Positions 5,448-57,099 of a stretch of DNA of 64,000 nucleotides are shown one piece after another; position 1 is the first letter of the stretch, and every line of letters begins with the position of its first letter. Both the position numbers and the translations under genes were made by a program. The notes beneath the pieces were generated by a model. The model was not told the origin of the DNA and did not search any database. It saw only the letters and a list, made by a program, of their open reading frames with translations. The DNA is from Mobula hypostoma (lineage: Eukaryota), in NCBI RefSeq assembly GCF_963921235.1, contig NC_086108.1, positions 77,626,001 through 77,690,000 on the forward strand, given 5' to 3'.

Positions 5448-5647
5448 TGTAATGTTTTGTAACTTCAAAACCTTAAATTAATTCAAAGGAAGACATGGTG
5501 AGTCCAAAATATGGGTCTGACTTTGTCTTTTACATTAAGCGAGGTGCACCCTTTTCATGTGGTAGTGTGATAATGTATGCAATTAATGTACTTATACATA
5601 TAACCCGTAATGAAATATTTAAATGAACACAAATGCTGAATCAAACT

Positions 5648-5677
5648 CTATATATATATATATATACACACACACAC
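5648..5677. repeat. Compound (TA)n(CA)n microsatellite
   Basis: Directly visible. Confidence 0.9.
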
Positions 5678-6080: not shown

Positions 6081-6200
6081 CATCGACAACACCATCTGAT
6101 GAATCTCACTCTTCCTTCAGTTAGTCCTGTCGAAGGGTCTCATCGACAACACCATCTGATGAATCTCACTCTTCCTTCAGTTAGTCCTGACGAAGGGTCT
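6081..6200 (+). repeat. 60-bp tandem duplication (2 copies, 1 mismatch) spanning the 5' junction of a Penelope-derived insert
   Basis: 6081-6140 equals 6141-6200 except ctgtcga/ctgacga. Confidence 0.95.
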
Positions 6201-6315
6201 CAGCCTGAAACGTCGACTGCACCTCCTCCTACAGATGCTGCTTGGCCTGCTGCGTTCACCAGCAACTTTGATGTGTGTTGCTTGAATTTCCAGCATCTGC
6301 AGAATTCCTGTTGTT
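6166..6315 (+). mobile_element. Short Penelope-derived (pLTR/3' end) insert with hammerhead motif
   Basis: Similar to PLE 3' end at 9455-9590; TGATGAATC flanks at 6157-6165 and 6316-6324. Confidence 0.85.
6183..6218 (+). ncRNA. Minimal type I hammerhead ribozyme motif (intact core)
   Basis: agtc CTGACGA agggtctcagcct GAAA c GTC gact: stem I agtc/gact, CUGANGA, stem II hairpin, GAAA, palindromic ACGU in place of stem III, GUC cleavage triplet. Confidence 0.75.
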
Positions 6316-7199
6316 TGATGAATCCTTTGTTTTTGTACCTCCATTGACTCCTTTCTTTTTCACCTTCCAATCATCCAGCTGGGCTTTGGTCCTGGATCTA
6401 TTTTCCAAGCAGTCTTTTGTCTCCCATTTCAAGTTCATGCTATAACCTTACTGCACACAGAATAGATTCTGGTTCTTATACTCAGAAAAGCTGAATGCTT
6501 GCAACTTTCTTGAAGCTCTTTAACTCTCATCCAGCTTAAAACCAAACCGCATTTCACAAATAACTGCCTGATTAACATACCAGAATGTTCTCATATATGT
6601 TGCCTCCAAATACTGTTGTAGTTAGACCAGCATTTTCATCACTTTCATGATTCCTCTGAGCAGCATTGTTCTTCTTTGGTCCAATATGCTTTCCAACCAA
6701 AGCCACAGATGTTGGCACCAACATCTGTTTGTCCTCTGTTGGGCAACAGTTCATGGTGTTCAGCATGGATTAATTTGCTTTCAGTTGGCTTCATTGTGGA
6801 GGATGTGGCATGCATGTGGTGGATGGAGTTAAAGTTGTAGTTGCCTCAGCCAATCACATTCCCTCAATGCTTGTCCTCCTGTTTTTACCACAAGTTCAAT
6901 GTGGCTTGTTAGTTGCTGTATTTCATTCTTGTGAATGTATTCCCACAGGAGTTATCTTTTCTCCAATATAAGTTCTTAGTTGGATATCTGCAGGCTTTAG
7001 TTGGGTATCTTTAAAATGTCCACCATCCAATTCCATTTGAATTAATTTGACATTCACTTCTGGCATAAGCCCCATTGCTTGTCTACTGTTAAGTTTCACA
7101 CTGTAAACCTCAAGGCTACACAATTCTGTGTCACTCTCATCATTATCAAATTTTTCCATCAACATCATGCAGATTAGTGCTCCTTTTGAAACTGCAACC

Positions 7200-7945
7200 T
7201 GACTTTCTAGTATTTTCTCTTCCCTGTGTGGACCATTTATTTTTGTCTACCGATATACTCTTTGTATGTGTCCTACTTTGTTGCATTTTCTGCAAATTTC
7301 ACCTTTAAATCTGCATTTATTTGAGTGCACGTGAGTCCCTGCCACAATGGTAACATAATTTGTTTGGCCAGGCTGGTTTCTGTTTAGACGCTGCAATTTT
7401 ATTTACACTCACTTTCATTTCTGACTGCAACTCAATCGCATCTCTGTCTGCAGTTTCCGTTGAAACAGCTGTTTCCACTGCTCTTTTAAATGTGAGTTGC
7501 GCTTCTGTCAGGAGCTGTTTTTGAATGTTTTCTTTTAAGATTCCACAAGCCAAATGATCTCTTAATGTATCATTAAGCCAATTACTGAACTGACAATGCT
7601 TAGCCAATCTCTTCAATTCAGCCACTTACCCTGAAATGGGTTCCTTTTCCTTCTGATTCCGCTAATGAAACCTAAAGCCTTCTGTAATTAACAATAGCCT
7701 TGGTTCTAAGTATTCCAACATCACTTTTACAATATCTGCAAAGATAATTTCTGATGGTTTGGTTGGAACAGTCAAACTTCGAAGCAAACTGTATGCCTTT
7801 AAATCCAATGTGCATAGCCAAATTGGCATTTTCTTCTCATGAGTTATTTCATTTGCTTCAAATTACTGTTCCAATAGCTCAATATATATGAGCCAATTAC
7901 CCATTATGTAATCAAACTCATCAATCTTTCCGATGTAGTCAGCAA
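7200..7945 (-). pseudogene. Gypsy gag (capsid + CCHC zinc knuckles), disrupted
   Basis: ORF 7317-7625 plus flanking frames with stops and frameshifts. Confidence 0.8.
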
Positions 7946-8478
7946 TGTAGTCTGCTCTTTTTTAAATGATTATAATCACTCACTCTTTATGAAACTTGAG
8001 TTCTTCCATATACAGCATTTTTTTTCAAACTCAATGTCTCTCCATGTGCTGGGCTGGTTCTTCAACATTTGATCATTGTTCTCACTGTTCCTTTTTCAGT
8101 TCAAATGTCTCCTTGCTTTTAGCAGGTTGGTAGTCATCTCGGGTTCGTCTTAAAATGCCTCTACTGGTCTGACTTCGTCTTTTACTTTAAGTGAGGCATG
8201 CACGTATGAAGTGCTAGCATGATAACGTATGCAATTAGCATATTTATACGTCTAAACCATAACAAATTATTTTGACAAACAAGAATTCTTAATCAAACAA
8301 TATTTCTGCAAGATGTCTCAGATATTACTGAAATATTAAATACCCAATACCTTCCTACACCATTGATGCTGTCATCACCTGCATCTCCATTTTTGGACAT
8401 CCGCCTTCACCCCATCTTCCAACCATCTTAACAACTTCCTTTTGTCCTCACCTACCACCCCATGAGCCTCCACATCCA

Positions 8479-8595
8479 AGGGCCTCTGCCCCTTCCCTCT
8501 ACAGTCCTGACGAAGGGTTCTGGCCTGAAACGTCGACCGATCTTTTTCACGGATGCTGCCCAACCTACTGAGTTCCTCCAGCGTGTTGTGAGTGT
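8479..8595 (+). mobile_element. 117-bp hammerhead-bearing mini-insert within the Penelope ORF
   Basis: Perfect 14-bp flanking duplication AGCCTCCACATCCA at 8465-8478 and 8596-8609. Confidence 0.88.
8502..8539 (+). ncRNA. Minimal type I hammerhead ribozyme motif (intact core)
   Basis: cagtc CTGACGA agggttctggcct GAAA c GTC gaccg. Confidence 0.72.
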
Positions 8596-10469
8596 AGCCT
8601 CCACATCCAGTACATCATTTCCTGCAATATCTGCCATCTTCAACAGGACTCTACACCAAACACATCTTTACCTCCCCTCCACTCCCCACTCTCCTCAAGA
8701 TTTGTTCCCTCCATGATTCCCTAGTCCATTTGTCCCTCACCTCAAATCTCCCTCCTGGCACTTATCCCTGTAAGCAGCCAAAGTGCTATACTTGCCCATT
8801 CAGCTCCTCCCTCACCTTCATTCAAATCCCCAGACAGTCCTTCCAAGAGAGACAACATTTCACCTGCAAAGCTATTGGGCATCTACTGTACCCAGTGCTC
8901 CAGATGTGGCTCCTCATCTTTGGTGAGACTTGATGTAGATTAGAATAACACGTTGTCAAACACCTATGCTCTGCCTGCAAAATGCAGGATTTCCCAATAG
9001 CTAACCATTTTAATTCCAATCCCCATTCCTGTTCAGACATGTCAGTCCCTGGCCTCCTCTACTGCCACAATGAGGCCACTCTCAGGTTGAAGGAGCAACA
9101 TCTCATATTCCATCTGAGTAGCCTCCAACCTGATGGCATGAACATTGATTTCTCCAACTTGCAGTAATTTCCCCCCTTCTCCCCTCCACTCTTTTTTCAA
9201 TTCCACACTCTGGGCCCTCTCTTACCTTTTCTCTTCTCCTCGCCTGCCTATCACTTCCCCCTGGTGTCCTTCCTTTTTCCCTTTCTCTCCTAGTCCATTC
9301 TCCTCTCCCATCAGACTCTTTTCCAGTCCTTTACCTTCTCTACCTATCATCTTCTAATTTCTTACTTCATCCCCAATCCCCCTCCCACCTGGCTTCACCT
9401 ATCACCTTCTAGCCCGTATGCTTTCCTCTCCCCCCTCCTACTCCCTACTTCCTTTCCAATCCTGATAAAACATCTCTACCCAAAACATAGACTGTTTATT
9501 CATTTCCATAGATGCTGCCTGACCTGCTGAGTTCCTCCAGCATTTTGTGTGTGTTGCTCTGGATTTCCAGCATCTGCAGAATCTCTTGTATTTAAATGTA
9601 AATTATACCCAGTTCTTACAAGAAAGAACAGGATTAGAACAAAAAAGCCCATTTTAATGCCAAGTGATTATAATGTTGCTAAACTGTAGCGTTTAGGGTT
9701 TTGCCCAATATGAAATACTAACATTTCTCTTTCCAAAATAACTTGAATTTATATAGTGGAAATATGGAATATAGTGAAAATTTATAATATGGAAAAATTC
9801 CGAAGGAACTTGTATAAATTGTTTTAGGGGTGATTTAATAGTTTGGTAAAAGTGATGGGCTTAAGGAAGATCTTGCTTGAAGGTAGGAGTTAGAGAGGGA
9901 AATATTGAAGCATTAAGCTTAGAAACTGATATTTCTACAAGCAATGAAGTTATGGAAAATGCATAAAAGCTCATGATCAGAGGCACACAAAGGATTGAGT
10001 TCTTGTAGGATTTTAGAGATGAAAGATGTTTCAAAGATCAAGCGAGGCAAATATATGAAAGGATTTAATCAAGAAATTAGCTGTAACAGTCTTGATGTTG
10101 GATATTAAATTGTCATCTGAATTGTAGATGTTAAAGTGTATAGGACAGGGATCCTGGGGTGCTAGCAAGAAGAGCTGTGGAATAATGAAGTCTAGTGACA
10201 AACATATAGATAAGAGTTTCAACAGCATGTAGACTGAGACAGTGATGGTGGATATTCTGCAAATATCTTTGCTTAACTGTTGCTTGATATTAGCCTATGG
10301 TACACTAGAAAGTGAGCCAGTAATAATCTTCAATGTGCAGCTGAAGTACCAGAATATCATAAATGAATACTATTGTTGTAACACTATGCATTACTTTAGC
10401 ATTCAGATCACAACCTAACTCTGATGAAAGGTGGACATTTGCACAGGTATTTAATGAAAGTGTTCGAGC

Positions 10470-11428
10470 TGCTGCTTCATGACTGTACAGCCAGATTCAG
10501 CTCAAACCACACAAAGTTCACCGATGATTGGCCTCATCAGCAACAACGACGAGTCAGCGTACAGGGAGGAGGTAGAGAGGCTTGTCAAGTGGTGTAAGAA
10601 TAACAACCTGAATCCTAATGTGGACAAGACAAAAGAGATGATTGTGAACTTCAGGAAGGCACAGGCCGACCACTTTCTATTGCATATCAGTGGGTCTGCA
10701 TGGAGAGAGTGGAGAGCACAGAGCTCCTTGGTGTGCACGTATCTAACCTGGACCCACAGCACTGCCTCAGTAATCAAGAAGGCACAGCAGTGTTTACACT
10801 TGCTGAGGAGATTGAGGTGTGCAAGGCTCTCTGCCCCCACTCTAACAACTTTCTACAGGAGCACAGTCGAGAGTGTCCTGTTTGGCTGCATTATTGTGCG
10901 GTATGGAAACTGTAAGGCATCGGATTGCAAAACTCTACAGAGGATTGTTAAAACCGCCAAGACGATCACTAGGGTCTCCACCCCCCCTGTCCCTGCAACT
11001 ATTTGTGACATTTACCAGGAATGTTGCAGACAAAGGGCCCAAAGCATTCTTGAGGGTCTCTACCACCCACCTCACAATCTCTTTGACTCACTACCATCAG
11101 GAAGGAGGTACAGAAGCATCAGGACTCGGACTGCCAGACTGGGTAACAGCTTCTTCCCCCAGGCTGTGAGACTAATGAATACCCTTCCATCACTGAGGTC
11201 TCATCACTAGGACTGCGAGCTGTTTACTGTTTATCTGTGCTGTGTTTTACTACATGTGTTTTGAATTATAATTTGTTAACTTATTTATAGAATAATATTT
11301 TGGTTTATGAGCTGTGTGTGAAATATGTTGTGTAGATGTACCATGGTCCAGAGGAACATTGTTTCATTTGCTTGTATATATAGTAGGTACAGTCAGCAAA
11401 CATCAAACCTGAACTTGAACTTGAACTT
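10470..11428 (+). mobile_element. Rex1/Babar LINE 3' portion
   Basis: GLISNNDESAYREEV..NVDKTKEMIVNFRK..FYRSTVESVL..LPSGRRYRSIRTRTARLGNSFFPQAVRL; tail (CTTGAA)n at ~11405-11428. Confidence 0.92.
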
Positions 11429-11724
11429 AATCTTCAATGCATTTCCAGTGAAGACCAGCGTTCTGGTCTGAAATCGGATACTCTTCACATTCCTTTTGAA
11501 AGCCGGTTAATATTTTTGTGAACAAGTAAATGGGAATGTTGAAGATAGTGAGGAATTGTTTGCACCGTAGTGCAGTCAGATAATTTCAGTGTGTTGTTAA
11601 TGTTCCCTTTCTGCTGTAAGAAGTTTGGGAAGGGGTGTTGCGCTTGTTAGAACTTGGATGCCAGGAACCCAGTAGGAATGCTGGCTGCTTGAATTTTTGC
11701 ACAATGTATTTTTTGTTTCAGTTA

Positions 11725-12240
11725 CTCTCCTTCATATGATTTACCAGTCTATTGTTGCCAGTACAGTCTTCTATGTAGTGACGTGCTGGGGCAATGGCAT
11801 CAACGCGGGTGTCGCCAACAGGCTCAATAAACTGATTAGAAAGTCTGGCTCTGTTATAGGAGTCAAACTGAACACACAAGAGGCTGTGGTAGAACAAAGG
11901 ACCCTACAGAAAATCCTGGCAATTCGGTACAATGTTTCTCACCCTCTGCATGCCACCTTGGCTGAAAAGAGGAGCACTTTTAGTAATTGACTAAGACAAC
12001 TGTACTGCTCCAAAGAGTGTTACATGAGGTCAATCTTACCCTTGGCCATTAGGCTCCATAATGAGTCAACCTATAACCTTGGAAGTGATGACCCTCTCCT
12101 TTTAGACTGTTTGAGGTAACTTATGTTTTATTCTTTCTTACTTCTCTTCTAATATTTGTATATCTGTGCACCTGTAATGCTACTGTGACACTATTTCCTT
12201 TGGGATTAATAAAGTATCCATGTATCTATTTATCTATCAT
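11725..12240 (+). mobile_element. Rex1/Babar LINE 3' fragment (different subfamily)
   Basis: YQSIVASTVFYVVTCWG..RLNKLIRKSGSVIG..SHPLH; AATAAA + (TATC)n-like tail. Confidence 0.85.
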
Positions 12241-12314
12241 TGTACAATTGAAGCCTGAAGAAAGGTGAAACAAAAATCATGATTTCCAGTAATCCACTGA
12301 TAAGATAGCCGATT

Positions 12315-12510
12315 TTTACAGGGCATTGGTCAGACTGCACTTGGACTATCATGAGCAGTTTTGGCCCCTTACCAAAGAAGAGAAGTGCTACCATGGCAGA
12401 GGGTCCAGAGAAGGTTCATGAGAATGATTCTGGGACTGAGTGGTTAACGTATGAAGATCACTTGAAGGCTCTGGGACTGTACTCGTTAGAGTTCAGAAGA
12501 ATGAGGGAGA
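12315..12510 (+). mobile_element. CR1 fragment
   Basis: LTYEDHLKALGLYSLEFRRMR. Confidence 0.7.
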
Positions 12511-14482
12511 ATCTCAAAACCAAGGAGCTGGTTGTGGACTACAGAAGGAATGGAGATAGGCTAACCCTTATTGACACCAAGGGATCTGGGGTTGAGAGGG
12601 TGAGCAGCTTTAAGTTATTCACTGAGAATCTCACGTGGTCTATACGTACTGGCTGTGTGGTGAATAAAGCACAACAGTGCTTCTTTCACCTTAGAAGGTT
12701 GAAGAAGTTTGGTATGGGCTCCAAATTATAGAAACATAGAAACATAGAAAACCTACAGCACAATACAGGCCCTTCGGCCCTCAAAGCTGTGCCAAACATG
12801 TCTTTACCTTAAAACTACCTAGGCTTACCCATAGCCCTCTATTTTTCTAAGCTCCATATACCCATCCAGGAGTGTCTTAAAAGACCCTGTCGTTTCCGCC
12901 TCCACCACTGCTGCTGGCAGCCCATTCCACGCACTCACCACTTTCTGTATAAAAAACATACGCCTGACATCTCCTCTATATCTGCCTCCAAGCACCTTAA
13001 AACTATGCCCTCTCATGCTAGCCATTTCAGCCCTGGGAAAAAGCCTCTGACTATCCACACGATCAATGCCTCTCACTATCTTGCATATCTCTATCAGGTC
13101 ACCTCTCATCCTCCATCACTCCACGGAGAAAAGGCCGAGTTCACTCAACCTATTCTCATAAGGTATGCTCCCCAATCCAGGAAACATCCTTGTAAATCTC
13201 CACTGCACCCTTTCTATGGTTTCCACATCCTTCCTGTAGATGGGGACCAGAACTGAACACAGTTCTCCAAGTGGGGTCTGACCAGGGTCCTATATAACTG
13301 CAATATTACCTCTTGGCTCTTAAACACAATCCCACAATTGATGAAAGCCAATACACCGTATGCCTTCTTAACCACAGAGTCAACCTATGTATCAGCTTTG
13401 AGTGTCCTATGGACTCAGACCCCAACATCCCTCTGATCCTCCACACTGCCAAGAGTCTTACCATTAATACTATATTCTACCATCATATTTGACCTACCAA
13501 AATGAACCACCTCACACTTAGCTGAGTTGAACTTCATCTGCCACTTCTCAGCCCAGTTTTGCATCCTATCAATGTCCCGCTGTAACCTTTGACAGCCTTC
13601 CACACTGTCCACAACACCCCCAACCTCTGTGTCATCAGCAAATTTACTAACCCATCCCTCCACTTCCTCATCCAGGTCATTTATAAAAATCACAAAGAGT
13701 AGGGATCCCAGAACAGATCCCTGAGGTACACCACTGGTCACCGGCCTCCATGCAAAATATGACCCGTCTACAACCACTCTTTGCCTTCTGTGGGCAAGCC
13801 AGTTCTGGATCCACAAAGCAATGTCCCCTTGAATCCCATGCCTCCTTACTTTCTCAATAAGCATTGCATGGGGTACCTTATCAAATGCCTTACTAAAATC
13901 CATATACACTACATCTATGGCTCTAACTTCATCAACGTGTTTAGTCACATCCTCAAAAAATTCAACCAGGCTCGTAAGGCGCAACCTGCCTTTGACAAAG
14001 CCATGCTTTCTGCAGGGGCACAGTTGAGAGCATCCTAACTGGCTGCATCACTGCTTGGTATGAGAACTATACTTCCCTCAATGGTGGTGCAGACAGCCCA
14101 GTGCATCTGTAGATGTGAACCTTCCACTAATCTGGACATTTACAAACACAGGTGTGGAAAAAGGGCCCAAAGGGTTGTTGGGGACCCGAGACACTCCAAC
14201 CATAAACTGTGCCAGCTGCTACCATCCAGGAAACAGTACCACAGCATAAAAGCCAGGACCAACAAGATCTGGGACAGCTTCTTCCACCAGGCCATCAGAC
14301 TGATTAATTCATGTGGATACTATTGTATTTCTATGTTATATTGACTGTCCCGTTGTACATACTATGTATTATAAATTACTATAAATTGCACATTGTACAT
14401 TTAGACGGAGATGTAACGTAAAGATTTTTTCACCTCATATATATGAAGGATGTAAGCAATAAAGTCAATTCAATTCAATTCA
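12511..14482 (+). mobile_element. Rex1/Babar 3' portion, split by a CR1 (12728-14006)
   Basis: KTKELVVDYRR..LRRLKKFGMGSK resumes as FCRGTVESILTGCITAWY..LLPSRKQYHSIKART..SFFHQAIRL; tail (CAATT)n at ~14465-14482. Confidence 0.88.
12728..14006 (-). mobile_element. 5'-truncated CR1 LINE (RT to 3' tail)
   Basis: YMDFSKAFDKVPH, SGVPQGSVLG, KFADD; tail (ATAGAAAC)n on + strand at 12728-12750. Confidence 0.95.
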
Positions 14483-14650
14483 AATATTGAAAGGTGTAGA
14501 TAGAGTGAGTGTGGAAAGGATGCTTGCTATAGTGGGTGAATCTAGGAACAGAGGGCACAAACTCAAAAGAGAAGGATGTCCTTTTAGAACAGAGACGAGG
14601 AGAAATTTCTTTAGCCAGAAGATGGTGAATCTGTGGCATTCGTTGCTAGC
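14483..14650 (+). mobile_element. CR1 fragment
   Basis: KGVDRVSVERML..SRNRGHKLK..RRNFFSQKMVNLW. Confidence 0.8.
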
Positions 14651-14811
14651 TGCTGAAGCTTTGATTATGACTGTGGGACTACAATATGGCATGCATGCAA
14701 CACAATACAACTGTAGGAATACAATCAGAAAATGAAAGTCAGTTGAACTCAGGGGTGGGATTTGTGAAAGGTGGTGACAAGTGATGATTGTTTTGGTTTT
14801 TTGAGCTGGTG

Positions 14812-15005
14812 CTTATTTATTTATTGAGATATTGTGTGGATCAGGCCCTTCCCGCTGTTTGAGCTGTTCTGCTGTGCAACCCCCGATTTAACCCTGTCCT
14901 AATCATGGGACAATTTATAATGACCAATTAACCTATGAACCAGTATGTCTTTGGTCTGTGGGAGGAAACTGGAGGAGAATGCACAAACTTGTTACAGACA
15001 GTGTT
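14812..15005 (-). mobile_element. V-SINE (HE1-like) partial
   Basis: gggacaatttataatgaccaattaacc..tctttggtctgtgggaggaaactgg, antisense of the SINE at 60196. Confidence 0.7.
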
Positions 15006-15199
15006 GGTCCACTCACTGCAGCATTTTACATCAGCGGAGATGGTATAAAAAGTAGAGAGGCTGGGGGCTTGAGGGGGGTCTTCGAGGGTTCACTGAGAGG
15101 CTGGTCATGAACAGCACTGTGGATCGAGTGGAACTTGTGCTGCAGTGAGAGGGGCCTACACACACCTAGATAAGTCTTTTATTGCTTGCAATTCTGTCC

Positions 15200-15655
15200 T
15201 AATCAAGTTTATTGTCATTACATGCAATAACCTTTAAAGGTAAGGATAAAATCTACAGATGAATCATGCATAAATCACAAACTAAAGTACATAAATTAAA
15301 TATTTTAAGCTACAGAATAGATTAACCAGTGACGCTTTGAATGAGATGCAGCAACGAGTTCAGAAGCCTAATGGCCTGATCGAAGAAACTGTTTCCCATC
15401 CTGACCATTCTTATTTTTGTACTTTGGAGTCTCCTGCCTGATGGTAGAAAATCAAAGAGGATGCTGGATGGATGGGTGGGATCCTTAATAATACTAAGGG
15501 CCCTGCCTATGCAGCGCTCCTGATAGAAGTCTCCAATGAATGGTAGGGAGACCCTTATGATCCTCTCAGCTGTTCTCACAACCCTTTGTTGGGACTTCTG
15601 GTCCGATACTTGGCTGCTCCCATACCAGTTGGAGATGCAGCTTGTCAGATGTAGT
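15200..15655 (-). mobile_element. Rex1/Babar 3' fragment
   Basis: RTAERIIRVSLP..IIKDPTHP..LPSGRRL..NSFFDQAIRLLN. Confidence 0.88.
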
Positions 15656-16113
15656 TCTAAGTAGATAACTGGATTTTGTGTCCTTCTGCCTTACCAATCC
15701 AAATCTGAACCTTTTGTTGTAATGTAACAGCCAAGACCCTTCATCAGGGTTTCTCTTTGTCATTTTTAACATATACTCAGTTTCTGTCTTGGGAATAGTA
15801 TATATGATCTTAATCTGTCATTCTCAGAATCACCAGGCAAAGATCGTTAACCCACAGCTAATATTCACCATTTTCGCCAACCTGAACAGAAGGGTACTTT
15901 GAAAGTATAGTATAATCATTGTTATAACGTTAGCAAGAGCCTCTGATTTCTGTCTTGCAGGAATTAACCAGTTCAGCTAGGGACTTAAGATATGACTGTA
16001 GAACTTATCTCATTTGCTATTTTTCTTCTTAATAGGTCTTCATATCCATCTTCTGTAGAAGCCTTCCTGAACTTATCACCAAGGGCAAAGACAAAAGTAT
16101 TCCAGACAATTAC

Positions 16114-16159
16114 CATACAGATACTTGGTTCTGTATGATGAAGGCTGCTCTTTGGACAA
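16114..16159 (-). CDS. Candidate host exon (46 nt, LSKEQPSSYRTKYLY), unverified
   Basis: ttttcattatacag acceptor, G|gtaatt donor, open in phase 0 matching the candidate at 16935-17017. Confidence 0.2.
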
Positions 16160-16934: not shown

Positions 16935-17017
16935 TTCCTCCATGAGTTTGGCACTGGTTAAAAGAGCTTGTCCCAGATTGGGTGTCATCCTATTGAGCTG
17001 CTTTGTTTTCCCCTGTC
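16935..17017 (-). CDS. Candidate host exon (83 nt, QGKTKQLNRMTPNLGQALLTSAKLMEE), unverified
   Basis: gtaac-tctttctgtattttcaacgtcatctctag acceptor, GAA|gtaagc donor, open in phase 1, non-repeat context. Confidence 0.33.
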
Positions 17018-17174
17018 CTAGAGATGACGTTGAAAATACAGAAAGAGTTACTGATCTCCACAGTTATATATGACAGTCAAGTATAAACACAACAAAAAAA
17101 AACCCAGCATTTTTTTAATTTTAACGGTGGATCTTCATAATAGTGGTGGGAAATCTTGGATTGAGTATGATGTT

Positions 17175-17550
17175 CTCCAAAGGGGTTATTCCTTTAATGG
17201 AAAATGCCTGCACATGACTTTGTTTAACATGGGGACACTGATGGAAGAACAGCAACCAGACAGTCCTTGACGGATGAGCATCAGGGTCCAGTGGCATGGA
17301 ATGCAAGATGACTGGGGACTCCTCACTGTCGCAGCCTTCCTCCGCTTTCACTGCCATTGCGATGTATCATCATCTTCCACCAGCTCCACCACTAAGGTTT
17401 TGGTTGGAACACTCTTTGTATGAAACCTTCTCCTTGACCTTACTTCCATAGGTGACCTTACCAAGAGCAAAGCTCCTGATGGCATTGCTCTTGTGATCTC
17501 AGGAACTCATAAGCTTCTCCACCGTGACAAGGTGACAATCCTCAGAGAAG
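17175..17550 (-). mobile_element. RTE-clade (Rex3/Expander-like) 5'-UTR-derived non-coding repeat
   Basis: Minus strand caccttgtcacggtggagaagctt..ggtaaggtcacctatgg..aaggtcaaggagaagg resembles RTE 5' UTRs; no ORF follows. Confidence 0.6.
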
Positions 17551-18429
17551 TTGTACACATCTACCAGTGTAAAGAAGAACTTGTTAAACAGTAAAATTGA
17601 CTCCATTGTTAGTGAGATATTGAATTTATTGACGTGCCATTCAACCAATATACCAGGGTCTTCTAGCTATTAACTGAAGCCTATATCTTATGGCATTATG
17701 GTCAAACAAAATCATTCTTACTCTTCATAAAATAACAGAAGCAAAGAGTGGAAAACAAACCAACCAAACCGGTACGTTGCTAGCTGCTAACCAATTCAGG
17801 AAGGGACCTCACTGGAATAGAAGCAAGCATCTTCTATACTATACATCCAAAACTAAGGATTATACGAATTATTGATTGATGAGACTTTGGTTCATTCCTA
17901 GCATTCCATGTACTAGGTCTCAGCTACAAAGAGGAAACTTGGGAGGTCACATACTATCTCAAAGGGAGGTGGAGACTCAGACGGTTGTTCATTTTAGGAG
18001 CGTTGATGCCTCCACCATAGATATGGCGCAGTCAACTTCACGACTAAATTCTGAAAGAATGCTTGATGAGCTATGGATATGGTGTGATACAAGAAGACAT
18101 TGGGAGAAGGAAAGTGTAACAGACAGCAGCAGGAATTGAACCCGGATTGCTGATGCTGTAAAGCATTATGCTAACCACTGCAATTGAGAAGTAAATTTGC
18201 GCACAATGCAAGATGAATTTCTACAGATTACAGGACTTGTACTCGAACCAGGTTTCACCCCAGATTTTGCACTCTCTCAAGGTAAATGATATAAATGGGT
18301 CTCCACTGTCATCACACAAGAGGTTCAGTGATTTCTCCAATGGAGGGCAATATAAATCGGGTGGACTAATGCAATGAATTTTAGTTAACATTTTACTTCA
18401 GTGTTATAAAGTCAACAAGAAGAATGGTA

Positions 18430-19975
18430 ACAATTGCTTATGTGCAATAGAGGGATAACTTATTTGGAGGCAGGAACTAATTAGGGATTGTCAACAATGC
18501 TTTGTGCATGGTAGATCATGTCTAAAGAAACACCTAATGAAGTTACCTGGAAAGTTGATGAAGGCAAGGCAGTGGATGTTGTCTTTGTCGACTTTAGCAA
18601 AGCTACTAACAAGGTCTCACATGGGAGGTTAGTCAAGTAGGTTCAGATGCTTGGCATTCAGGATGAGGTAGTAAATTGGATTAGACCATGCCTTCACAGG
18701 AGAGGCCAGAGAGTAGGAGTAGATAGTTGCATCTCTGACTGGAGGTCCATGACTAATGGGGTGTCACAGGGATCGGTGCTGGGTCTGTTGTTTTTTGTCG
18801 TTTACAATATATTAACTATATGGATGACATCAAGATTGGGTGTGTAGTAGACAACAAGGAAGACCATCAAAGCTTGCAGGGTGACATGGATCAGCTGGAA
18901 AAATGAGCTGAAAAATAGCAGAGGGACTTTAACGCAGACAAGTGTGAGGTGTTACTCTTTAGGAGGACAAACCAGAGTGGAACTTACACGGTGAATATTA
19001 GAGCACTGACTTGTGTGGTAGAACAGAGGGATCTGGGAATACTGATTCATAATTCCTTGAAAGTGATGTCGCAAGTCATCAAGAAAATTTCTTTCATTTT
19101 GGCTTTTATAAATCAACGTATAAGGTACAGGATTTGGAATGGCATGTTGAAGTGTATATGATGTAGGTGAGTCCTAATTTTGAATATTGTGTTCAGTTCT
19201 GGCCCCCTATCTACAGGAAAGATGTAAACAAGGTTGAAAGAGTGTAGAAAAAAATTACAAGGATTTTGCCACTACTTGGGGACTTGAGTTATAGGGAAAG
19301 AGTGCATAGGTTTGAACTTTATTCCCTTGGAGCATAGCAGAATGAGAGAAGGCTTGATAGAGGTATTCAAAATTATGAGGGGTACAGGTAGGGTAAATGC
19401 AAGCAGGTCTTTTCCACAGAGGTTGGGTGAGTCTAAAAGTAGAGGTCATAGGTTAAAGGTGAAAGGTGAACCATTTAAGAGGAACATGAGGGAAAGCTTC
19501 TTCACTAGAGGGTGTTCATTGTGTCGAATGAGCTGGCAGTGAAAGTGGTGGATTTGGGTTCGATTTCAACATTTAAGAGAATTTTGGATAGGTACATGGA
19601 TGGAAATTGTATGGAGGGCTATGGTCTAGGTGCAGGTCAATGGGATTAGGCAGATTAATAGTTCAGCACAGACCAAATGGGCTAATGGGCCTGTTTCTGT
19701 GCCACACACATCAAAGTTGCTGGTGAACGCAGCAGGCCAGGCAGCATCTCTTGAAAGAGGTACAGTCGACGTTCCAGGCCGAGACCCTTTGTCAGGACTG
19801 GCGAAGGGTCTAGGCTTGAAACGTCGACTGTACCTCTTCCTAGAGATGCTGCCTGGCCTGCTGCGTTCACCAGCAATTTTGTTGTGTGTTGCTTGAATTT
19901 CCAGCATCTGCAGAATTCCTGTTGTTTGCTGTTTCTATGCTGTTGTGTTCTATGACTCCAGGACTCCATGACTCT
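18430..19975 (+). mobile_element. CR1 LINE (RT to tail), decayed; 3' UTR interrupted at 19703-19928
   Basis: DFSKA..GVSQGSVLG..GLIEVFKIMRG..SRGHRLKVKG; tail ttctatgactc-like repeats at 19948-19975. Confidence 0.9.
19703..19928. mobile_element. Palindromic (head-to-head) Penelope-derived insert with two mutated hammerhead motifs
   Basis: 19704-19795 is the reverse complement of ~19798-19889; 12-bp flanks CTGTTTCTGTGC (19691-19702) and CTGTTTCTATGC (19929-19940). Confidence 0.88.
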
Positions 19976-20077
19976 AATGATACAGAGATGAGAGACAGCA
20001 TGGGGCCCAGTTTTAACTTTCACCACTTGGTGCAATCATGACAATAGTACAGATAAAATGGCATTTCAGAACTACTA

Positions 20078-20285
20078 AGAGAAAGTCTGCAGATGCTGGA
20101 AATCCAAGCAACACACTCCAAGTGCTGGAGCAACTCAGTAGGCCAGGCAGCATCTATGGAAAAGAGTAAACAGTTGACCTTTCGGGAGCTGATGAAGGGT
20201 CTTGTCTGTTAAATGCCAGCTGTTTACTCTTCTTCATTGATGCTGCCTGGCCTGCTGAGTTCCTCCAGCATTTGGTGTGTGTTGC
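20078..20285. mobile_element. Second, more diverged palindromic Penelope-derived unit
   Basis: gcaacacac..ggccaggcagcatctatggaaaagagtaaacag versus ctgtttactcttcttcattgatgctgcctggcc..gtgtgttgc, central ctgatgaagggtct. Confidence 0.8.
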
Positions 20286-20704
20286 ACAGTTACCAGTTTA
20301 TCACTATTTTGAAAGAGGATTATTTGAACTACTGAAATAACTATCCTTTCAGGAAATTATTCCTTTTAATAAGCAAATTATGGTCTTGAGTAGTTGTATC
20401 TTAAGGTATGAACCTGTTAGGTTAAGAATTAGATAAATAATGCATACCAAGAGGAGGAAATAACAAATAGCTGAAAATTTTATTGAAAACTACATATGTT
20501 GGAATTACTCAATAAGTCAGTTAGCATTAGTTAAGTGTATTTCTGAAAATAACCCTCTAGTAGAATATAGGTGAGTAAGGATTCTACCTGCTTCTGCTAT
20601 TTACTGGTGTTGAATAGTTCAATGTATTGTCCAATATTTTCAGAATTTGTTCAAAATACTGTATTGAAGAAACACTGTAATAAACGTACTAAGCAAACAC
20701 TCAC

Positions 20705-20757
20705 TCCACAGGTTTCAATAAGAATGCCATGTGTAGAAGGAAATTACTTGTCCTCTT
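20705..20757 (-). CDS. Candidate host exon (53 nt, KRTSNFLLHMAFLLKPV), unverified
   Basis: ttgactgttttatttcctcag acceptor, GA|gtgagt donor, one open frame. Confidence 0.2.
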
Positions 20758-21634
20758 CTGAGGAAATAAAACAGTCAAACTGGCAAAGTTAAAGCCATGT
20801 ATATAAAAGTACCCTTTGGGGGCAAGCATGTACTTAGAGTAATGAGGCAATATTTGCATGGTTGATGATAACCTTGTATTATATTTTCTATTAAAAAGAT
20901 TAATCAGAGTAGGAGGGTCACACTCTGTTGATCATTCTCAACATTAGGTTTGGTCCTTTGACCGAATGATCGAAATTAGTCTGGTAGGTTTAATATATTT
21001 GAAATTTGATAAGAGAACAACATGGAAGATGTAAACGTCACCCGAGGGAAAAAAAATCACATGATTTATCTATTTTTGTCCCATTAGTATTAATTTTCTC
21101 TCATGCTGTTCGTTTTTTTTTCTATATTGTACTTTCTTTGACACTGATCTTGCAGTAAAGTCAACTGCTGCAGGCAACAAGAGCTTCATAAACATTTTGC
21201 TGCCATTTAAATTCCTTGGTAACCAGCTTTTATTTTAACTCCACCTGCTGCAACACCTACCCCTCCTCCACAAATTCTCAGTCCCCTCAATTGGCTTTAT
21301 CACTTCAATTAGAATGAAATCTGATGGCAAAGGTTATGTTGAATCTTCAACAATTCACACTTTTTCTTTACTTAATAGTCAATACTTCACATCATCAGCT
21401 GCAATCAATTAAATGTCATTTGATGGACACACTCTATCAGAATCTTCATAAACTGTTGAACTTCAGAACCATAGATAACAGTATTTGTATTTATTTTAAC
21501 ACTTAGTGTCAAGAGAAATTTCAAGCAGATCTATTTGCTGACTAATCCAATTTATGCCAAGGAAAGGAGAAGGTTTTGTGTGCATTCATACACAACTTTG
21601 AGATTTACTGTTTTCTCAGGTGCTAGAGAACCTC

Positions 21635-22285
21635 AGAGTCAGTTTTATTATCACTGATATAGGTTATGAAATTTATTCTTTTGCAGCAGCAGTACAGCAT
21701 AAGACATAAAAATACTATAAGTTACAAAGATAAATAAATAGTGCAAAAGACAAAAAAAAGTATTCATGGGCCATTCAAAAATTTGATGGTGGAGGGGAAG
21801 AAGCTGCTCTTAAGAAGTTGAGTGTGGATCTTCAGGCTCCTGTACCTCCTCCCTAATAGTAGTAATGTAAAGAGGACATGGCCCAGATAGTGTGTGTCTT
21901 TAATGATGCCTTCTTCAGCCACTAAATTTTGAAGATGTCATCGATGCAGGGATGGGTTGTGTCTGTAATGGAAGTGGCCCAACCTTCTGCAGCCCCTGGT
22001 GATCCTATGCTTTAGAGGCTACAAACCAGGCTGTAATGCTGCCTATCAGAAAGTCTCCACCATATATTTGTAGAAATTTGCACGGATCTTTTGTGACATA
22101 CCAAAGCTACTCAAACTCCTGGTGAAGTAGAGCCACTGGCATGCCTTCTTCATGATTGCATTATTGTGTTAACCCAGTTAGATCCTTTGAGATGTTGATG
22201 CACAGGAACTTGAAGCTGCTCACCTCTTCCACCATTGCCCCCTCAATGAGGACTGATGCATGTTCTCCCAACTTCCTTTCTACAA
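21635..22285 (-). mobile_element. Rex1/Babar 3' fragment, old
   Basis: Same 3' UTR and LPSGRRY-type region as other Rex1 copies (ttcaggctcctgtacctcctccc). Confidence 0.8.
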
Positions 22286-22874
22286 GTGTTACCTTTGCAA
22301 TTTTCCATTGGTTCTGTAAGGAAAGTTAAAAAAAAATGATGGTGGTAATGGTACAAGTGACACTTCATAACTTGTGGATTATATCTCTACAAGTGGTCAT
22401 CCAAATGCCTTTTAATTTGGAAGAAAGTAGCTGCACATTGATTATCTTCCTAATCTAAGTTTGCCTAATCTAAGTTTAGTTAGAGCTGTGGAGATCCAAG
22501 GGAGTGATTTTGGGTGATCAAATTGGTGTTAATGGATAGAGTGGGGGAAAGGTGAAGTCTGAGGCAAATGCATCATCTATAGACTCTGAGAATAGGGTGA
22601 TCTGAGATGTGAAAAGCAGGACTAGGTATGAGGTTTCTGTCATCTCTTACAATTTCAGGCCTAACATTGGCCTTGGATTCAGTAATGGTGGCTTCAGTAT
22701 TGGTGAGCACTCTCTCTTGCATGGGAATAAAATGCATCTCCCCCTATCTCTGGGTGCTGGAGATGGCCCCTGATAGGGAGAGAGAGTTAATACAGCTACA
22801 TTTATGATGACCATGGATTTGATTTTCTCTCCATGACAGTGGTACCATGAAACCAAGTTTGTTATTTAGGGATA

Positions 22875-22995
22875 TAAGAATGTATCTGGACTCTCTTGCA
22901 GTTACAAACATCCTCTCCATGTCCACTCTGTCAAAGCATTTCAATATTCAGTAGCTTTCAATTAGATTCCCCATTCATTCTTCTAAACTCCATAG
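22875..22995 (-). mobile_element. CR1 fragment
   Basis: RMNGESN..KCFDRVDMERMF remnant. Confidence 0.55.
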
Positions 22996-23505
22996 AAAGG
23001 TGAATTGCTGTCCTCAGTTGCACAGTACTGTGAAAGATGTGCTTTGGTCTACCTGAAACTTGCTGGTCTTTCAATGAAATATCTGGAAGGGAGATTGCCA
23101 ATGGAACATTCCAGGTTGCAGGAGTACATGCTGAGGAGTACGGCTAGCAGGAGCCTGGTGTAAACAAAGAAAAGACCTTGTGGGGAAGTCCTTCTGCCAC
23201 TAGATTTTGAGGAGCTCTTTCAAACACGTGAAGTTTGAGGGCACATGAGTGGCAATGGTGGTCTGTACACACTGTGCCAATGCTACCAGAATACAGAACT
23301 GATAACACAATGAATGTATAAAATGAACTACATTATGAATGTAAATAAAACCTTGCACCTTTTTGTACGTAATGTATATATTTCAGGAATAAAGAGCATA
23401 GGGCAAATACAGGCACAGATCAAAACATAGTTTCAGTCACATATACAGGCAGAAAGTTAGGACAGGCACGGACAGACAAAACAGAGACAATGATAGGACA
23501 GGGCT

Positions 23506-23530
23506 GCACACACACACACACACACACACA
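23506..23530. repeat. (CA)n microsatellite
   Basis: Directly visible. Confidence 0.9.
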
Positions 23531-23604
23531 AAACAATGGCACAATGATAGGCCAAGCACAGAAACACACTTGTACACTAAGGTATGACAGGAATAGGTAT
23601 TAAT

Positions 23605-23820
23605 ACCTATTTAAAGATACATTGCAGAACAGACCGCACTGTCCAGCAAATCACCTATTTAACCCTAGCCTAATCACAGAACAATTTACAATGACCAATT
23701 AACCGACTAACTTATATATCTTTGGACTGCAGGAAGAAATAGGATCACTCAGCTGAGGGGAGGACATACCAATTCCTTTCAGAGGATACCAGAATTGAAC
23801 TTCAAATTCTGATATCCCAA
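23605..23820 (-). mobile_element. V-SINE partial
   Basis: ttaaccctagcctaatcacagaacaatttacaatgaccaattaacc..tctttggactg. Confidence 0.65.
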
Positions 23821-23825
23821 ACTAT

Positions 23826-25325
23826 CAGAGTCAGGTTTAATATCATTAGCATATGCATTGAAATTTACTGTCTTTGCGGCAGCAGTACAATGTAATACAT
23901 AATAATAGAGAAAAAACTGTGAATTACAGTAAGTATTTACATATACAGGTATATATATTCAAAGATTCAAAGTACATTTATTATCAAAGAAACTATAAAT
24001 TATACAACCTTGAGGTTTGTTTGCTAACAGACAGCCACAAAGCAAGAAACCCAAAAGAATCCAATAAAAAAAGGAGCAAACCCCAATGAACCCAGAGAAA
24101 GAGAGAAGAAAACACAAATCATGCAAACGACAGAAGCATGCATCAACACAGCATTCTGAACCAAATTGAGTCATTAGATCCAAATTCCCATTGCAACCGG
24201 GAGTAGGTCCACAGCCTCAGTATTCAGTTTACCATATTAGTGGGGCAAATCATCTCAAAGTTCGCAGACACAAAGCACAGCAGTTATGGGCAGTCTCACA
24301 GCCTCATCATTGTGAAAAGAGGAGCCCAGTCTATCTGGGCCAACGTTTAAATTGTCCGAACAGGGGATTGTACGTCGAATTAGGACCTGGGCTCCTCTGT
24401 GTCGAATCGCTTTGGGCCTAGAACATGCTGTCCAGTGATTCACTTCAGGCCCAGATTTCACTGCCAAAGAAGCCATTCTCGATCTCTCCAAATCAGCTCA
24501 GCATCCAGAGTGACCCAAACCTCGCCTGAGTCTCGACACCCTGCCTTTCCAGTCTATCAGGGCCAGTGTTTAAATTGTCTTAACAGCAGATTGTGCCTTG
24601 CGTTAGGACCTGGTCTCTACTGCAGCGAATCGCTCCAGGCCTAGAACGCAATGCCCAGCAATTTGCTTCAGACATATATTTCGCTGCTGAAGAAGCCATT
24701 CTCAACCTCTCCAGATCGGCTCAGCACTTAGAGCAATCACCCTCACACATGGGTTAGTTAGATGGGCATCAGAACTCTGTCTCGTCTTCTCCTCTACAAT
24801 TCGTTCACTCCAACCAGAATGGCTCCAACTCCAAGTGCATCAGTTTTGTACACAAAGAAGTGTAATTTTGCACAATTTATTTTGCCTTCGCTCACCTCTT
24901 GATTGTTTATGGTGATAGTTTACCATGATTTACTTCAAAAAAGTGTTATTAGTAATGTTTTTAATCAAATTCCTTTGTGTTCGAACTACCAGTAAACTGT
25001 TGCATACCTTCAATAGCGACTTCTTAAACCGGACTTATATATATAATATAGTTAAATTAAATAGGTAGTGCAAAAATAGAAATAAAAAAGTAGTGAAATA
25101 CTGTTCATGGGTTCAATGTCCATTCAGAAATCAGATAACAGAGAGGTAGAAGCTGTTCCTGAAGTGTGTACCTTCAGGCTTCTGTACCTCCTTCCTGATG
25201 GGAGACATGACAACAAGGCATGACCTGGGTAGTGGGGGTCCTTAATAACGGACACCAACTTTTTGAGGCATCGCTCTTTGAAGATATCCGAGATCCTGTG
25301 GAGGCCAGTGCCCATGAGGGAGCTG
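23826..25325 (-). mobile_element. Rex1 3' fragment (23826-23950 and 25040-25325) split by a non-coding insert
   Basis: IKDPHYPGHALLSCLPSGRRYRSLK; 3' UTR resumes left of the insert. Confidence 0.78.
23955..25035 (-). mobile_element. Putative non-autonomous, non-coding retroposon with Rex1-like tail and internal 223-bp tandem repeat
   Basis: Minus-strand 3' end aataaatgtactttgaatctttgaa; repeat units start at 24326 and 24549; (TA)n flanks on both sides. Confidence 0.55.
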
Positions 25326-25878
25326 ACATGATGGAGATCATGGTGTCAAACTACTTGCTGCACAGCTGTGACTCCCAATATTAATGTAGGAACACAAATG
25401 TTAACACAAGCACAAATATAGGGCAATTGCAGATACCAGCAGACATAGAAACAGAAAGAGGTATAGTCACAAACACAGGTGCAGATGTGGGAACAGACAA
25501 AGCAGGGGTATGTCCAATGGCAGAGACTAGCTTAACATCCAGAACCAGAATTTAGCCAACTGCTGAAAGCAAGTGTGTATTTTATGTTTGCCAGAGTAAT
25601 ATTCAGAAACAGTGAAGTGCTACAATTGTGTATCAATATCCCAATTAGCACATCCAAGAGGAACCAGGAGAAGACCGATTCTCTGAATCTCCTTGGATGT
25701 CACTCTACTGAGCACTAACTTTGGACCTGGTGATCAATGGTGGTAGGCCCAAGCTTTAGTTTTTGCTTTTGCCCTATTTATTAAGTATTTGTGCAGAAAA
25801 TCAGACTATTTTGCTAAATTGGTGAAAATGATCTCAAGGACAAGATGCATTATGCAGAGAAAACAAACTATAAACTTG

Positions 25879-26280
25879 AGAAAATCTGCAGATGCTGGAA
25901 ATGAAAGCAAAACACACAAAATGCTAGAGGAACTCAGCAGGCCAGGCAGCATCTATGGAAAAGAGTACAGTTGACATTTTGGGCCGAGACCCTTCAGTAG
26001 AACTGGAGAGAAAAAGATGAGGAGTAGATTTAAAAGGTGGGTGGAAGGGGAGGAAGAAACACAAGGTGATAGGTGAAACTGGGAGGGGGATGGGTAAAGT
26101 AAAAAGCTGGGGATTGGTGAAAGAGATACAAGGCTGGAGAAGGGGGGGAAGGCCATGGGAGAAAGAAAAGGGGGAGGAGCACCAGAGGGAGGTGATGGGC
26201 AGGCAAGGAGATAAGGTGAGAGAGGGAAAAGGGGATGGGGAATGATGAAGGGGAGGGAGCCATTACCAGCATTACCAGAC
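25879..26280 (-). mobile_element. Penelope 3' UTR/pLTR insert with degenerate hammerhead
   Basis: Antisense match to 9170-9590; perfect 13-bp flanking duplication AACTATAAACTTG at 25866-25878 and 26281-26293. Confidence 0.88.
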
Positions 26281-57085: not shown

Positions 57086-57099
57086 TTACTTTTTTCCTC

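What the first reader, a model, noticed from the sequence alone, without database searches (positions are those of the whole stretch)
6166..26280. Family of short, independently inserted hammerhead-ribozyme cassettes derived from Penelope, each with its own 9-14 bp TSD
Seen: four non-coding inserts (6166-6315, 8479-8595, 19703-19928, 25879-26280) share the PLE 3'/pLTR sequence and a CUGANGA-stemII-GAAACGUC motif. Each has a flanking duplication of 9, 14, 12 (1 mismatch) and 13 bp respectively. Older copies lie at ~20080, 38510, 42200, 54450 and 56900. Known: Penelope-like elements carry minimal type I hammerheads thought to cleave as dimers, and non-autonomous hammerhead retroelements (retrozymes) exist in other taxa. 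Inference: these may be a retrozyme-like non-autonomous family mobilised by the PLE RT/GIY-YIG. Three of the four begin within ~25 nt of the hammerhead, which hints at a defined unit rather than random truncation.
Basis: partly seen in the sequence, partly recalled or inferred. Interest (0 to 1): 0.72.

Follow-up and report, generated by a model that had tools for sequence, protein, structure and literature searches.

The report
Truncated Penelope retroelement ends with hammerheads
The short inserts are real, but they are the broken-off and often mirror-doubled end pieces of a very abundant Penelope-like jumping gene in a ray-like fish, a known kind of insertion and not a separate ribozyme mini-element.

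Summary
All four inserts and their 9, 14, 12 (1 mismatch) and 13 bp duplications are real. Only two of the four keep an intact minimal hammerhead core. They are not one family: arms are 58-92% alike, and a single clade of short copies is modestly rejected (AU p=0.032). One short palindrome is 85-89% identical to the long copies, one of which follows a Neptune-type RT/GIY-YIG ORF remnant. Four loci are head-to-head palindromes, one arm with a 33-40 nt tail and one without. That is the published signature of Penelope-like element (PLE) insertion. No tandem hammerhead units and no fixed 5' end were found in the window. Contigs from three organisms show a huge family that also covers the upstream UTR, with a sharp tail-less 3' end. 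One point remains open: 8 of 10 loci stop 13-55 nt upstream of the cleavage site, more than simple exponential truncation gives (post hoc, small n). The hammerhead region may be a stall or fold-back hot zone. The scan reached the same reading on other pieces of this genome and in other genomes.

The parts
6166..6315 (+). I1: 5'-truncated PLE 3' end, tail-bearing; intact minimal hammerhead core 6187-6214; starts 48 nt upstream of C17
6080..6202 (+). 60-bp tandem duplication covering flank, TSD (6097-6105 and 6157-6165) and the 5' part of I1; right TSD 6316-6324
8479..8595 (+). I2: 5'-truncated, tail-less PLE 3' end of a different sequence type (63-75% to the others); intact core 8507-8534; 14-bp TSD; inserted into the ORF remnant of an older PLE
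5218..5448 (+). upstream piece of the old PLE ORF remnant (matches P0001 aa 76-153)
8349..9592 (+). old Neptune-type PLE 3' part: decayed linker with CX4CxxC and GIY-YIG region to the stop at about 9167, 3' UTR, decayed hammerhead (C17 about 9489) and tail; the start coordinate is approximate
19703..19928 (.). I3: head-to-head palindrome; left arm (minus strand) tail-less, right arm (plus strand) with tail; centre at 19796-19797 between CAG and CTG at the core start; both cores mutated; 12-bp TSD with 1 mismatch; sits in the 3' end of another dispersed repeat
20077..20289 (.). older palindrome; left arm with tail starts in stem II (about -11), right arm tail-less starts at about -29; 85-89% identical to I4 and the old PLE; no TSD found
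25879..26280 (-). I4: 402-bp copy spanning nearly the whole 3' UTR (5' end about at the ORF stop), decayed hammerhead (C17 at 25973) and 33-nt tail (25879-25911); 13-bp TSD; junction contigs in three organisms
38457..38538 (-). very old copy, alignment ends only, no TSD found
   Evidence: E=2.8e-4
42197..42369 (.). old palindrome without a complete hammerhead: left arm tail-less from about +7, right arm with tail from about -16; 15-bp TSD with 1 mismatch (42182-42196 / 42370-42384)
54453..54550 (+). old copy, decayed hammerhead; a possible short inverted tail piece just upstream was not established
56884..57087 (.). very old palindrome (arms 54% alike): left arm with tail-like end from about +2, right arm tail-less; weak 10-bp TSD candidate with 1 mismatch

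Best explanation
The inserts are ordinary products of endonuclease-bearing, Neptune-type PLEs from several subfamilies of different age in a batoid-like fish. Shown: each is a piece of the PLE 3' end (3' UTR, minimal hammerhead, about 60-70 nt, optional 33-40 nt tail) with its own 9-15 bp TSD; some are single truncated arms and some are head-to-head pairs. From published work on the class: the GIY-YIG endonuclease nicks the target, and the RT starts cDNA at one of two internal RNA sites, which gives tailed and tail-less ends. Inferred: synthesis usually stops after about 60-150 nt. The end is then joined to the second nick (single arm) or to a second cDNA or a fold-back copy (palindrome; one tailed and one tail-less arm fits priming from both target strands). 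The hammerhead is a passenger of the pLTR, and the copies decay after insertion. Inferred with less confidence (about 0.45): the structured or protein-bound hammerhead region is where RT tends to stall or snap back, which would give the loose clustering of 5' ends without any separate mini-element.
For: TSDs real and above chance. The same 3' sequence follows a PLE ORF remnant in the window, 54-67% identical to Hypanus sabinus proteins. It matches 883-946 aa RT + GIY-YIG proteins with the CX2-5CxxC linker, which PMC8557442 gives for Neptune/Nematis. Two 3' ends occur (+61 to +72 and +94 to +103 from C17). The largest loose-end row shown in each of the four runs is the tail-less end at 25912 (1338, 1371, 1352 and 211 contigs, flank agreement 0.40-0.42). 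In 4 of 4 palindromes one arm has the tail and one lacks it (the 56.9-kb case is decayed). Opposite-strand joints 25949/25996 and 25902/25959 occur in all three DNA runs (2-6 contigs each). Short copies are not one clade (p-AU 0.032, 11 rows). The upstream UTR is covered by contigs far above flank depth (bins 2e4-1e6 against about 6 in X1), so long copies are common. Literature: inverted 5'-truncated copy, 30-40 bp tail, 8-10 bp TSDs and palindromic junctions (PMC3846280; PMC8557442); two RT start sites and extension of both strands (PMC11167929); min-HHRs mostly single and 'probably related to truncated PLEs', some 100-700 bp apart on opposite strands (PMC4209133).
Against: 5' ends are not smoothly spread in this window. 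8 of 10 loci reach -13 to -55, none stops between -56 and -300, and no arm with E<=0.008 starts later than about +7. Exponential nulls give P<=0.037 at their most favourable settings. No long copy of the I1/I3 or I2 sequence types is in the window, so their link to an autonomous master is inferred, not shown. The tree is weak (1 starred branch of 8; 136 columns). The stall and fold-back step is inferred from junction sequences only.
Confidence: 0.82

Rival explanations
1. A distinct non-autonomous, retrozyme-like or SINE-like family: short hammerhead cassettes transcribed as their own unit and mobilised in trans by the PLE protein.
For: 5' ends cluster near the hammerhead. I1 and the two I3 arms form a starred clade (100/99) with no long member in this window. 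Non-LTR retrozymes related to pLTRs, with dispersed monomers, are reported in vertebrates including one chondrichthyan (10.64898/2026.07.22.740005). Putatively non-autonomous PLEs exist in Chlamydomonas (PMC8557442).
Against: No shared 5' base among the copies. At least four sequence types. Short 20080 arms resemble the long copies (83-89% to I4). No tandem hammerhead units: same-strand arms lie 386 bp to 22 kb apart and belong to separate insertions. No A plus B box in 7 arms and no tRNA gene in the window. The tail/no-tail ends and inversions are those of PLE integration.
Confidence: 0.08
2. Hammerhead self-cleavage in vivo trims the PLE RNA, and RT run-off at the cut sets part of the 5' ends and junctions.
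For: One contig of the RNA-guessed run X22 joins 25973 (C17 of I4's GUC) to the tail end 25879 (depth 880.8; absent from the DNA columns). The left arm of the 56.9-kb palindrome starts at about +2. An earlier scan note (e1-7790562, not checked here) reports a 63-bp TSD-flanked copy starting at the cut.
Against: 0 of 5 well TSD-bounded loci start at +1; four keep sequence upstream of the cut and must come from uncleaved RNA. The joint is one contig in one run, the letters between are not known, and DNA joints were under-counted. For an Anolis PLE, hammerhead mutants did not change insertion in vitro and no RNA-seq reads began or ended at the cut (PMC11167929). min-HHR monomers showed no cleavage in vitro (PMC4209133).
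Confidence: 0.1

Closest known systems
Insertions of endonuclease-bearing PLEs with pLTR, inverted 5'-truncated copy and optional 30-40 bp tail (PMC3846280; PMC8557442; PMC11167929)
   Same: Variable 5' truncation, head-to-head inversion with palindromic junction, tail on one arm only, TSDs of similar size (8-10 bp in the passages read, 9-15 bp here), hammerhead in the terminal repeat.
   Different: Here most insertions are only 60-230 bp stumps and the family is extremely abundant. The passages read do not describe 5' ends clustering at the hammerhead.
Minimal type I hammerheads (min-HHR) of metazoan PLEs, including fish Neptune, Poseidon and Xena (PMC4209133)
   Same: Short helix I, an extra base between positions 9 and 10.1, G10.1, palindromic 15.2-16.2 with no loop 3; mostly single dispersed motifs, some on opposite strands.
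   Different: Cartilaginous fishes are not named in the two parts read. In I1 and I2 position 11.1 is U (a wobble with G10.1). Cleavage was not tested here.
Metazoan non-LTR retrozymes (PMC7229834; 10.64898/2026.07.22.740005)
   Same: Non-coding, type I hammerhead, related to PLE pLTRs, TSDs longer than 4 bp, dispersed monomers exist. I4 (402 bp) is near the 363-bp mean consensus given for the one chondrichthyan.
   Different: Those are defined by tandem head-to-tail units each with a hammerhead and by monomeric circular RNA. Here there are no tandem units, no fixed monomer, and inverted rather than direct repeats.
Putatively non-autonomous PLEs such as Chlamydomonas MRC1 (PMC8557442)
   Same: Share 3' ends with autonomous PLEs.
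   Different: [quoted passage not shown] The copies here are simple sub-segments of the 3' end, from several subfamilies.

Membership tests
EN+ Penelope-like element (Neptune type) | ORF with RT followed by C-terminal GIY-YIG endonuclease upstream of the terminal repeat | tested here: met
   Remnant 5218-5448 + 8408-9164 matches RT/GIY-YIG proteins P0006-P0018. Shown for the old copy only; the RT catalytic core is not in the window.
EN+ Penelope-like element (Neptune type) | CX2-5CxxC Zn-finger-like linker before the endonuclease | tested here: met
   CKQPKCYTC in window 8619-8930, also in 7 of 7 relatives checked; definition from PMC8557442. The motif is shared with Nematis.
EN+ Penelope-like element (Neptune type) | Placement in the Neptune clade by RT phylogeny | not tested
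   No named reference PLE RTs were held.
EN+ Penelope-like element (Neptune type) | Optional 30-40 nt 3' tail (two 3' ends) | tested here: met
   Ends at +61 to +72 or +94 to +103; loose-end peak at 25912, 33 nt inside the tail end, in four runs.
EN+ Penelope-like element (Neptune type) | 5' truncation with inverted head-to-head copies | tested here: met
   4 of 10 loci are palindromes; opposite-strand joints in three DNA runs.
PLE minimal hammerhead (min-HHR) | CUGANGA, extra base, helix II, GAAA, palindromic dinucleotide, UH, flanking helix I | tested here: met
   Met in I1 and I2 (2 of 7 arms). At four I4 deviations (25972, 25976, 25980, 25998) most summed depth in X1 and X5 reads the canonical letter.
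PLE minimal hammerhead (min-HHR) | Self-cleavage as a dimer | not testable with these tools
   Monomer folds are no better than shuffles (z -0.57 to +1.07, 6 of 6), as expected for a motif lacking helix III; no activity assay.
Non-LTR retrozyme | Tandem head-to-tail repeats with a hammerhead in each unit | tested here: not met
   None in the window. The 'goes back' joints shown for run X11 start at 25949-25967, downstream of the hammerhead (most joints were hidden).
Non-LTR retrozyme | A defined monomer with shared ends and its own family sequence | tested here: not met
   5' ends differ; one clade of short copies rejected, p-AU 0.032. Window only.
Non-LTR retrozyme | Abundant monomer-length linear and circular RNA | tested here: inconclusive
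   Only contigs of one RNA-guessed run were laid; one joint from the tail end to C17. Contigs cannot show ends, strand or level.
SINE | Internal Pol III promoter or small-RNA-derived head | tested here: not met
   No B box in 7 arms, one loose A-box match (recalled consensus); no tRNA gene; no Rfam match reached its gathering score.

The most novel reading that the evidence does not exclude
The hammerhead region of these PLEs sets where reverse transcription stops or turns back, by structure or bound protein and perhaps sometimes by cleavage. Most insertions would then be hammerhead-bounded stumps or palindromes, and the very large number of copies would be an in vivo record of what the PLE hammerhead does. 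I3 turns exactly at CAG-GA-CTG, formed by helix I and the core start. 8 of 10 loci stop within 55 nt upstream of the cut, and one RNA-run contig joins the tail end to C17.
Probability: 0.3. Interest if true: 0.5.

Novelty: new member of a known kind. Interest (0 to 1): 0.2.

Why it matters
As read here it is an ordinary, very abundant PLE family in a ray-like fish. Its value is as material: the role of PLE hammerheads is still open (PMC4209133, PMC11167929, PMC8557442), and a genome with on the order of ten such insertions per 64 kb would let 5' ends and inversion points be mapped against the hammerhead with great statistical power. A separate retrozyme family would be more surprising, but the evidence here is against it.

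Tried and rejected
No genome is held, so the genome-wide 5'-end plot could not be made. DNA pattern scans for outside copies: 31-mer hammerhead pattern, 0 hits in viral, genome and metagenome contigs; 22-mer, 0 in viral and genome contigs and 2 in metagenome contigs. Those two (L001, L002) share nothing else with the window and are chance matches. Rfam gave no hammerhead family up to E=1; its 6 hits (5 miRNA, 1 sisRNA) are all under gathering score, and three fall on the palindromes, so a miRNA reading was rejected. Pfam did not recognise the two decayed window endonuclease pieces. Run search: no RNA holder listed. Depth along I4 was not used as a truncation curve, because the tool says contig depth cannot rank parts and it tracks I4's local likeness to other subfamilies. 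No loose-end peak upstream of the hammerhead is among the 24 rows shown, but 2152 rows were hidden and some were not counted, so this is no evidence. No empty site for I4 was seen: organisms A, B and E all carry it. The U-A pair at the base of helix I in I4 was considered as covariation and rejected: most laid depth in X1 and X5 reads other letters at both sites, so it is decay. No TSD was found for the 20080, 38510 and 54450 copies or the old PLE. A short inverted arm at 54.4 kb did not align; if real it would be an arm starting well downstream of the hammerhead. The arm-level clustering test used hand-read ends and non-independent arms and is superseded, whose ends for 3 of 10 loci are also approximate. 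PMC12602865 held nothing relevant. PMC5785218 is not held. Repbase and Dfam are not available.
Full report
Observation. Each has a flanking direct repeat: 9 bp (6157/6316), 14 bp (8465/8596), 12 bp with one mismatch (19691/19929) and 13 bp (25866/26281). In random position pairs from the same window with 20x20 boundary offsets, an exact match of 9 or more arose in 20 of 4000, of 13 or more in 1 of 4000, and a one-mismatch match of 12 or more in 6 of 4000. With 60x60 offsets the counts were 23, 1 and 18 of 1000. Four such repeats at homology boundaries are target-site duplications. A fifth, 15 bp with one mismatch, flanks 42197-42369. A profile built from nine arms found 14 arms at 10 loci with E<=0.008, two weak pieces (6122-6164, the local duplication, E=0.055; 15729-15749, E=0.17) and three hits at E>1; the reversed control gave two hits at E>4. 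The hammerhead claim needs trimming: the full core is intact in 2 of 7 arms tested (I1, I2). I1 also has a 60-bp tandem duplication over its left junction.

What the inserts are part of. I2 sits inside an older element whose remnant ORF (5218-5448, then 8408-9164) matches Hypanus sabinus proteins at 54-67% and unnamed 883-946 aa proteins at 27-41%. Pfam finds GIY-YIG in 5 of 5 of those long proteins and RVT_1 in 4 of 5, several below the curated cut-off. The window remnant has CKQPKCYTC before the endonuclease, the CX2-5CxxC linker that PMC8557442 gives for Neptune and Nematis (passages). This ORF is followed 322 nt after its stop by a decayed hammerhead and the same 3' sequence as the short inserts. 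So the short inserts are pieces of the 3' end of a Neptune-type PLE. The host is a batoid-like fish by these hits; the clade was not tested by RT phylogeny.

Anatomy. Measured from the predicted cleavage site (C17 = 0), 3' ends fall in two groups: +61 to +72 (I2, I3 left, 20080 right, 42200 left) and +94 to +103 (I1, I3 right, I4, old PLE, 20080 left, 42200 right) (values for the 20080 and 42200 arms read by hand from the alignment). Four of ten loci are head-to-head palindromes, and in each one arm has the tail and the other does not (the 56.9-kb case is decayed, arms 54% alike). The junctions differ. I3 turns at CAG-GA-CTG at the core start. The 20080 arms start at about -11 and -29. The 42200 arms start at about +7 and -16, so that insertion never held a whole hammerhead. 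Single-arm copies start at -48 (I1), -55 (I2), -307 (I4, about at the ORF stop) and more than 1.1 kb upstream (old PLE).

One family or many? Pairwise identity of the arms is 58-92%. I1 and I3 group at 88-92%; the 20080 left arm, I4 and the old PLE at 82-89%; I2 is 63-75% to all. In a tree of 11 arms (38510 and both 56900 arms left out as too decayed; 136 columns) only the I1/I3 branch is starred, and holding the nine short arms as one clade is rejected at p-AU 0.032. That is modest, but it agrees with the identity table. No hammerhead-bearing tandem was found, no B box in 7 arms (recalled consensus) and no tRNA gene.

Evidence from outside the window. No genome is held and pattern scans gave nothing useful. 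I laid 4 of the 24 listed runs on 25700-26450 at 86% likeness; all are contigs. Between 118,054 and 132,511 contigs were laid per DNA run and 12,128 for the RNA-guessed run, against a flank depth of about 6 (X1, X5) or 21 (X11). The family is huge, though the tool gives no copy number. The upstream UTR bins are also covered at 2e4-1e6 in X1, so copies reaching far beyond the hammerhead are common. The largest loose-end row shown in every run is 25912, with unlike flanks (agreement 0.40-0.42): the tail-less 3' end, 33 nt inside the tail end. The loose ends at 25959-25971 continue as hammerhead sequence of other subfamilies, so they are mostly not truncations. Opposite-strand joints near the hammerhead occur in all three DNA runs (2-6 contigs each). 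Contigs cross both I4 junctions in organisms A, B and E, the last differing at 17 of 203 letters on the left piece, so I4 predates their split. Against my reading, or at least open: one X22 contig joins 25973 (C17) to the tail end 25879 at depth 880.8, with zero in the DNA columns. The letters between are not known, DNA joints were under-counted, and 698 joints and 2152 loose ends were not shown.

Is truncation smooth? Not in this window. Taking the longest arm per locus, 8 of 10 stop between -13 and -55, and no arm with E<=0.008 starts later than about +7. Exponential nulls with detection floors of 40, 50 and 60 nt give at most P=0.0025, 0.009 and 0.037. The interval was chosen after seeing the data, three ends are alignment ends, and real truncation need not be exponential. 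A loose zone of ends in several subfamilies is better explained by a stop or fold-back zone in the shared template than by a defined unit.

Mechanism. Shown: structure, TSDs, two 3' ends, inversions, several subfamilies, decay. Taken from the literature on the class: PLE protein nicks and extends both target strands and starts reverse transcription at two internal RNA sites whose spacing is the tail; hammerhead mutants did not alter insertion in vitro (PMC11167929, parts 1-2 of 4 read). Insertions are highly 5'-truncated, often with an inverted truncated copy and a 30-40 bp tail at one end (PMC8557442, passages). Head-to-head repeats with palindromic junctions were read as self-priming, with 8-10 bp TSDs (PMC3846280, passages). 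Inferred here: early termination, joining of a tailed and a tail-less cDNA, and stalling or snap-back at the hammerhead. Confidence is 0.82 for PLE stumps, 0.08 for a separate non-autonomous family and 0.10 for cleavage-set ends as a main cause.

Comparison with what is known. min-HHRs in fish Neptune, Poseidon and Xena elements, mostly single, widespread and probably from truncated PLEs, some close together on opposite strands, are in PMC4209133 (parts 1-2 of 4). Non-LTR retrozymes are defined by tandem units and monomeric circular RNA (PMC7229834, passages). A 2026 preprint derives them from pLTRs, finds them in one chondrichthyan, and notes that most PLE insertions are 5'-truncated with a single terminal repeat (10.64898/2026.07.22.740005, parts 1-3 of 5; its supplements were not seen and may list related families). 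PMC6765202 (passages) reviews dimer cleavage. The inserts work like, and are, PLE insertions; they fail the two retrozyme features testable here. I found no paper on this family in cartilaginous fishes or on 5'-end clustering at PLE hammerheads in searches (0 papers) and 73, which cover only open-licence text; Repbase and Dfam were not available.

Earlier scan notes. My reading was on record before I saw them (which returned nothing). Searches show several follow-ups on this and other genomes reaching the same conclusion. One note reports a copy starting exactly at the cut, and another reports no genomic sign that the cut is used; neither was checked here, and none is counted as support.

Verdict. 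A real observation with an ordinary explanation: a new member of a known kind, interest 0.2. The most novel reading not excluded is that the hammerhead region sets where reverse transcription stops or turns back (probability 0.3, interest 0.5 if true).

Noticed in passing
window 5449-8348: About 2.9 kb splits the old PLE ORF. It has 133-bp direct repeats near its ends (5514-5646 and 8166-8298, 75%) and a decayed minus-strand reading with Cys/His knuckle-like motifs. It looks like a Gypsy-type LTR retrotransposon (label from recall). Nesting order: old PLE, then this element, then I1 inside it.
   Followed up: partly
window 6080-6202: A 60-bp tandem duplication (1 difference) copies flank, TSD and the first part of I1, including half of the hammerhead. 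It may be post-insertion slippage or a template jump at integration.
   Followed up: partly
window 25973 to 25879 (run X22): One RNA-run contig joins the tail end to C17 of the hammerhead, depth 880.8. It could be a transcribed genomic partial tandem, run-off from a cleaved template, or a circle.
   Followed up: no
window 25949-25955 to 25880-25884 (run X11): 'Goes back' joints with a few letters between (depth up to 1001.6) suggest partial tandems of the last ~75 nt that lack the hammerhead.
   Followed up: no
window 26280: I4's 5' end falls about at the ORF stop codon of the old PLE (307 against 322 nt from C17) and has a small 9-nt duplication.
   Followed up: partly
window 50056-50124: Near-perfect 68-bp palindrome scoring 50 bits against mir-9256 (gathering score 80); probably a small inverted-repeat element (inference).
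   Followed up: no
window 45692-45881 (-): Another decayed PLE endonuclease fragment; the profile search found no 3' arm near it.
   Followed up: no
window 2568-3290, 12732-14071, 18990-19702, 27205-27904, 33603-34570, 39304-39900, 52487-53931: Dispersed LINE-like repeats, some with RVT_1 frames. I3 is inserted in the 3' end of one of them (CR1-like by recall).
   Followed up: no
window 62825-63532 and 24326-24726: Local direct duplications of about 200 bp (88%) and 178 bp (77%).
   Followed up: no
window 10458-11210: Open frame with an ALKBH8_N (PF09004) match, E=7.5e-13; by recall this domain often marks the end of fish LINE ORFs.
   Followed up: no
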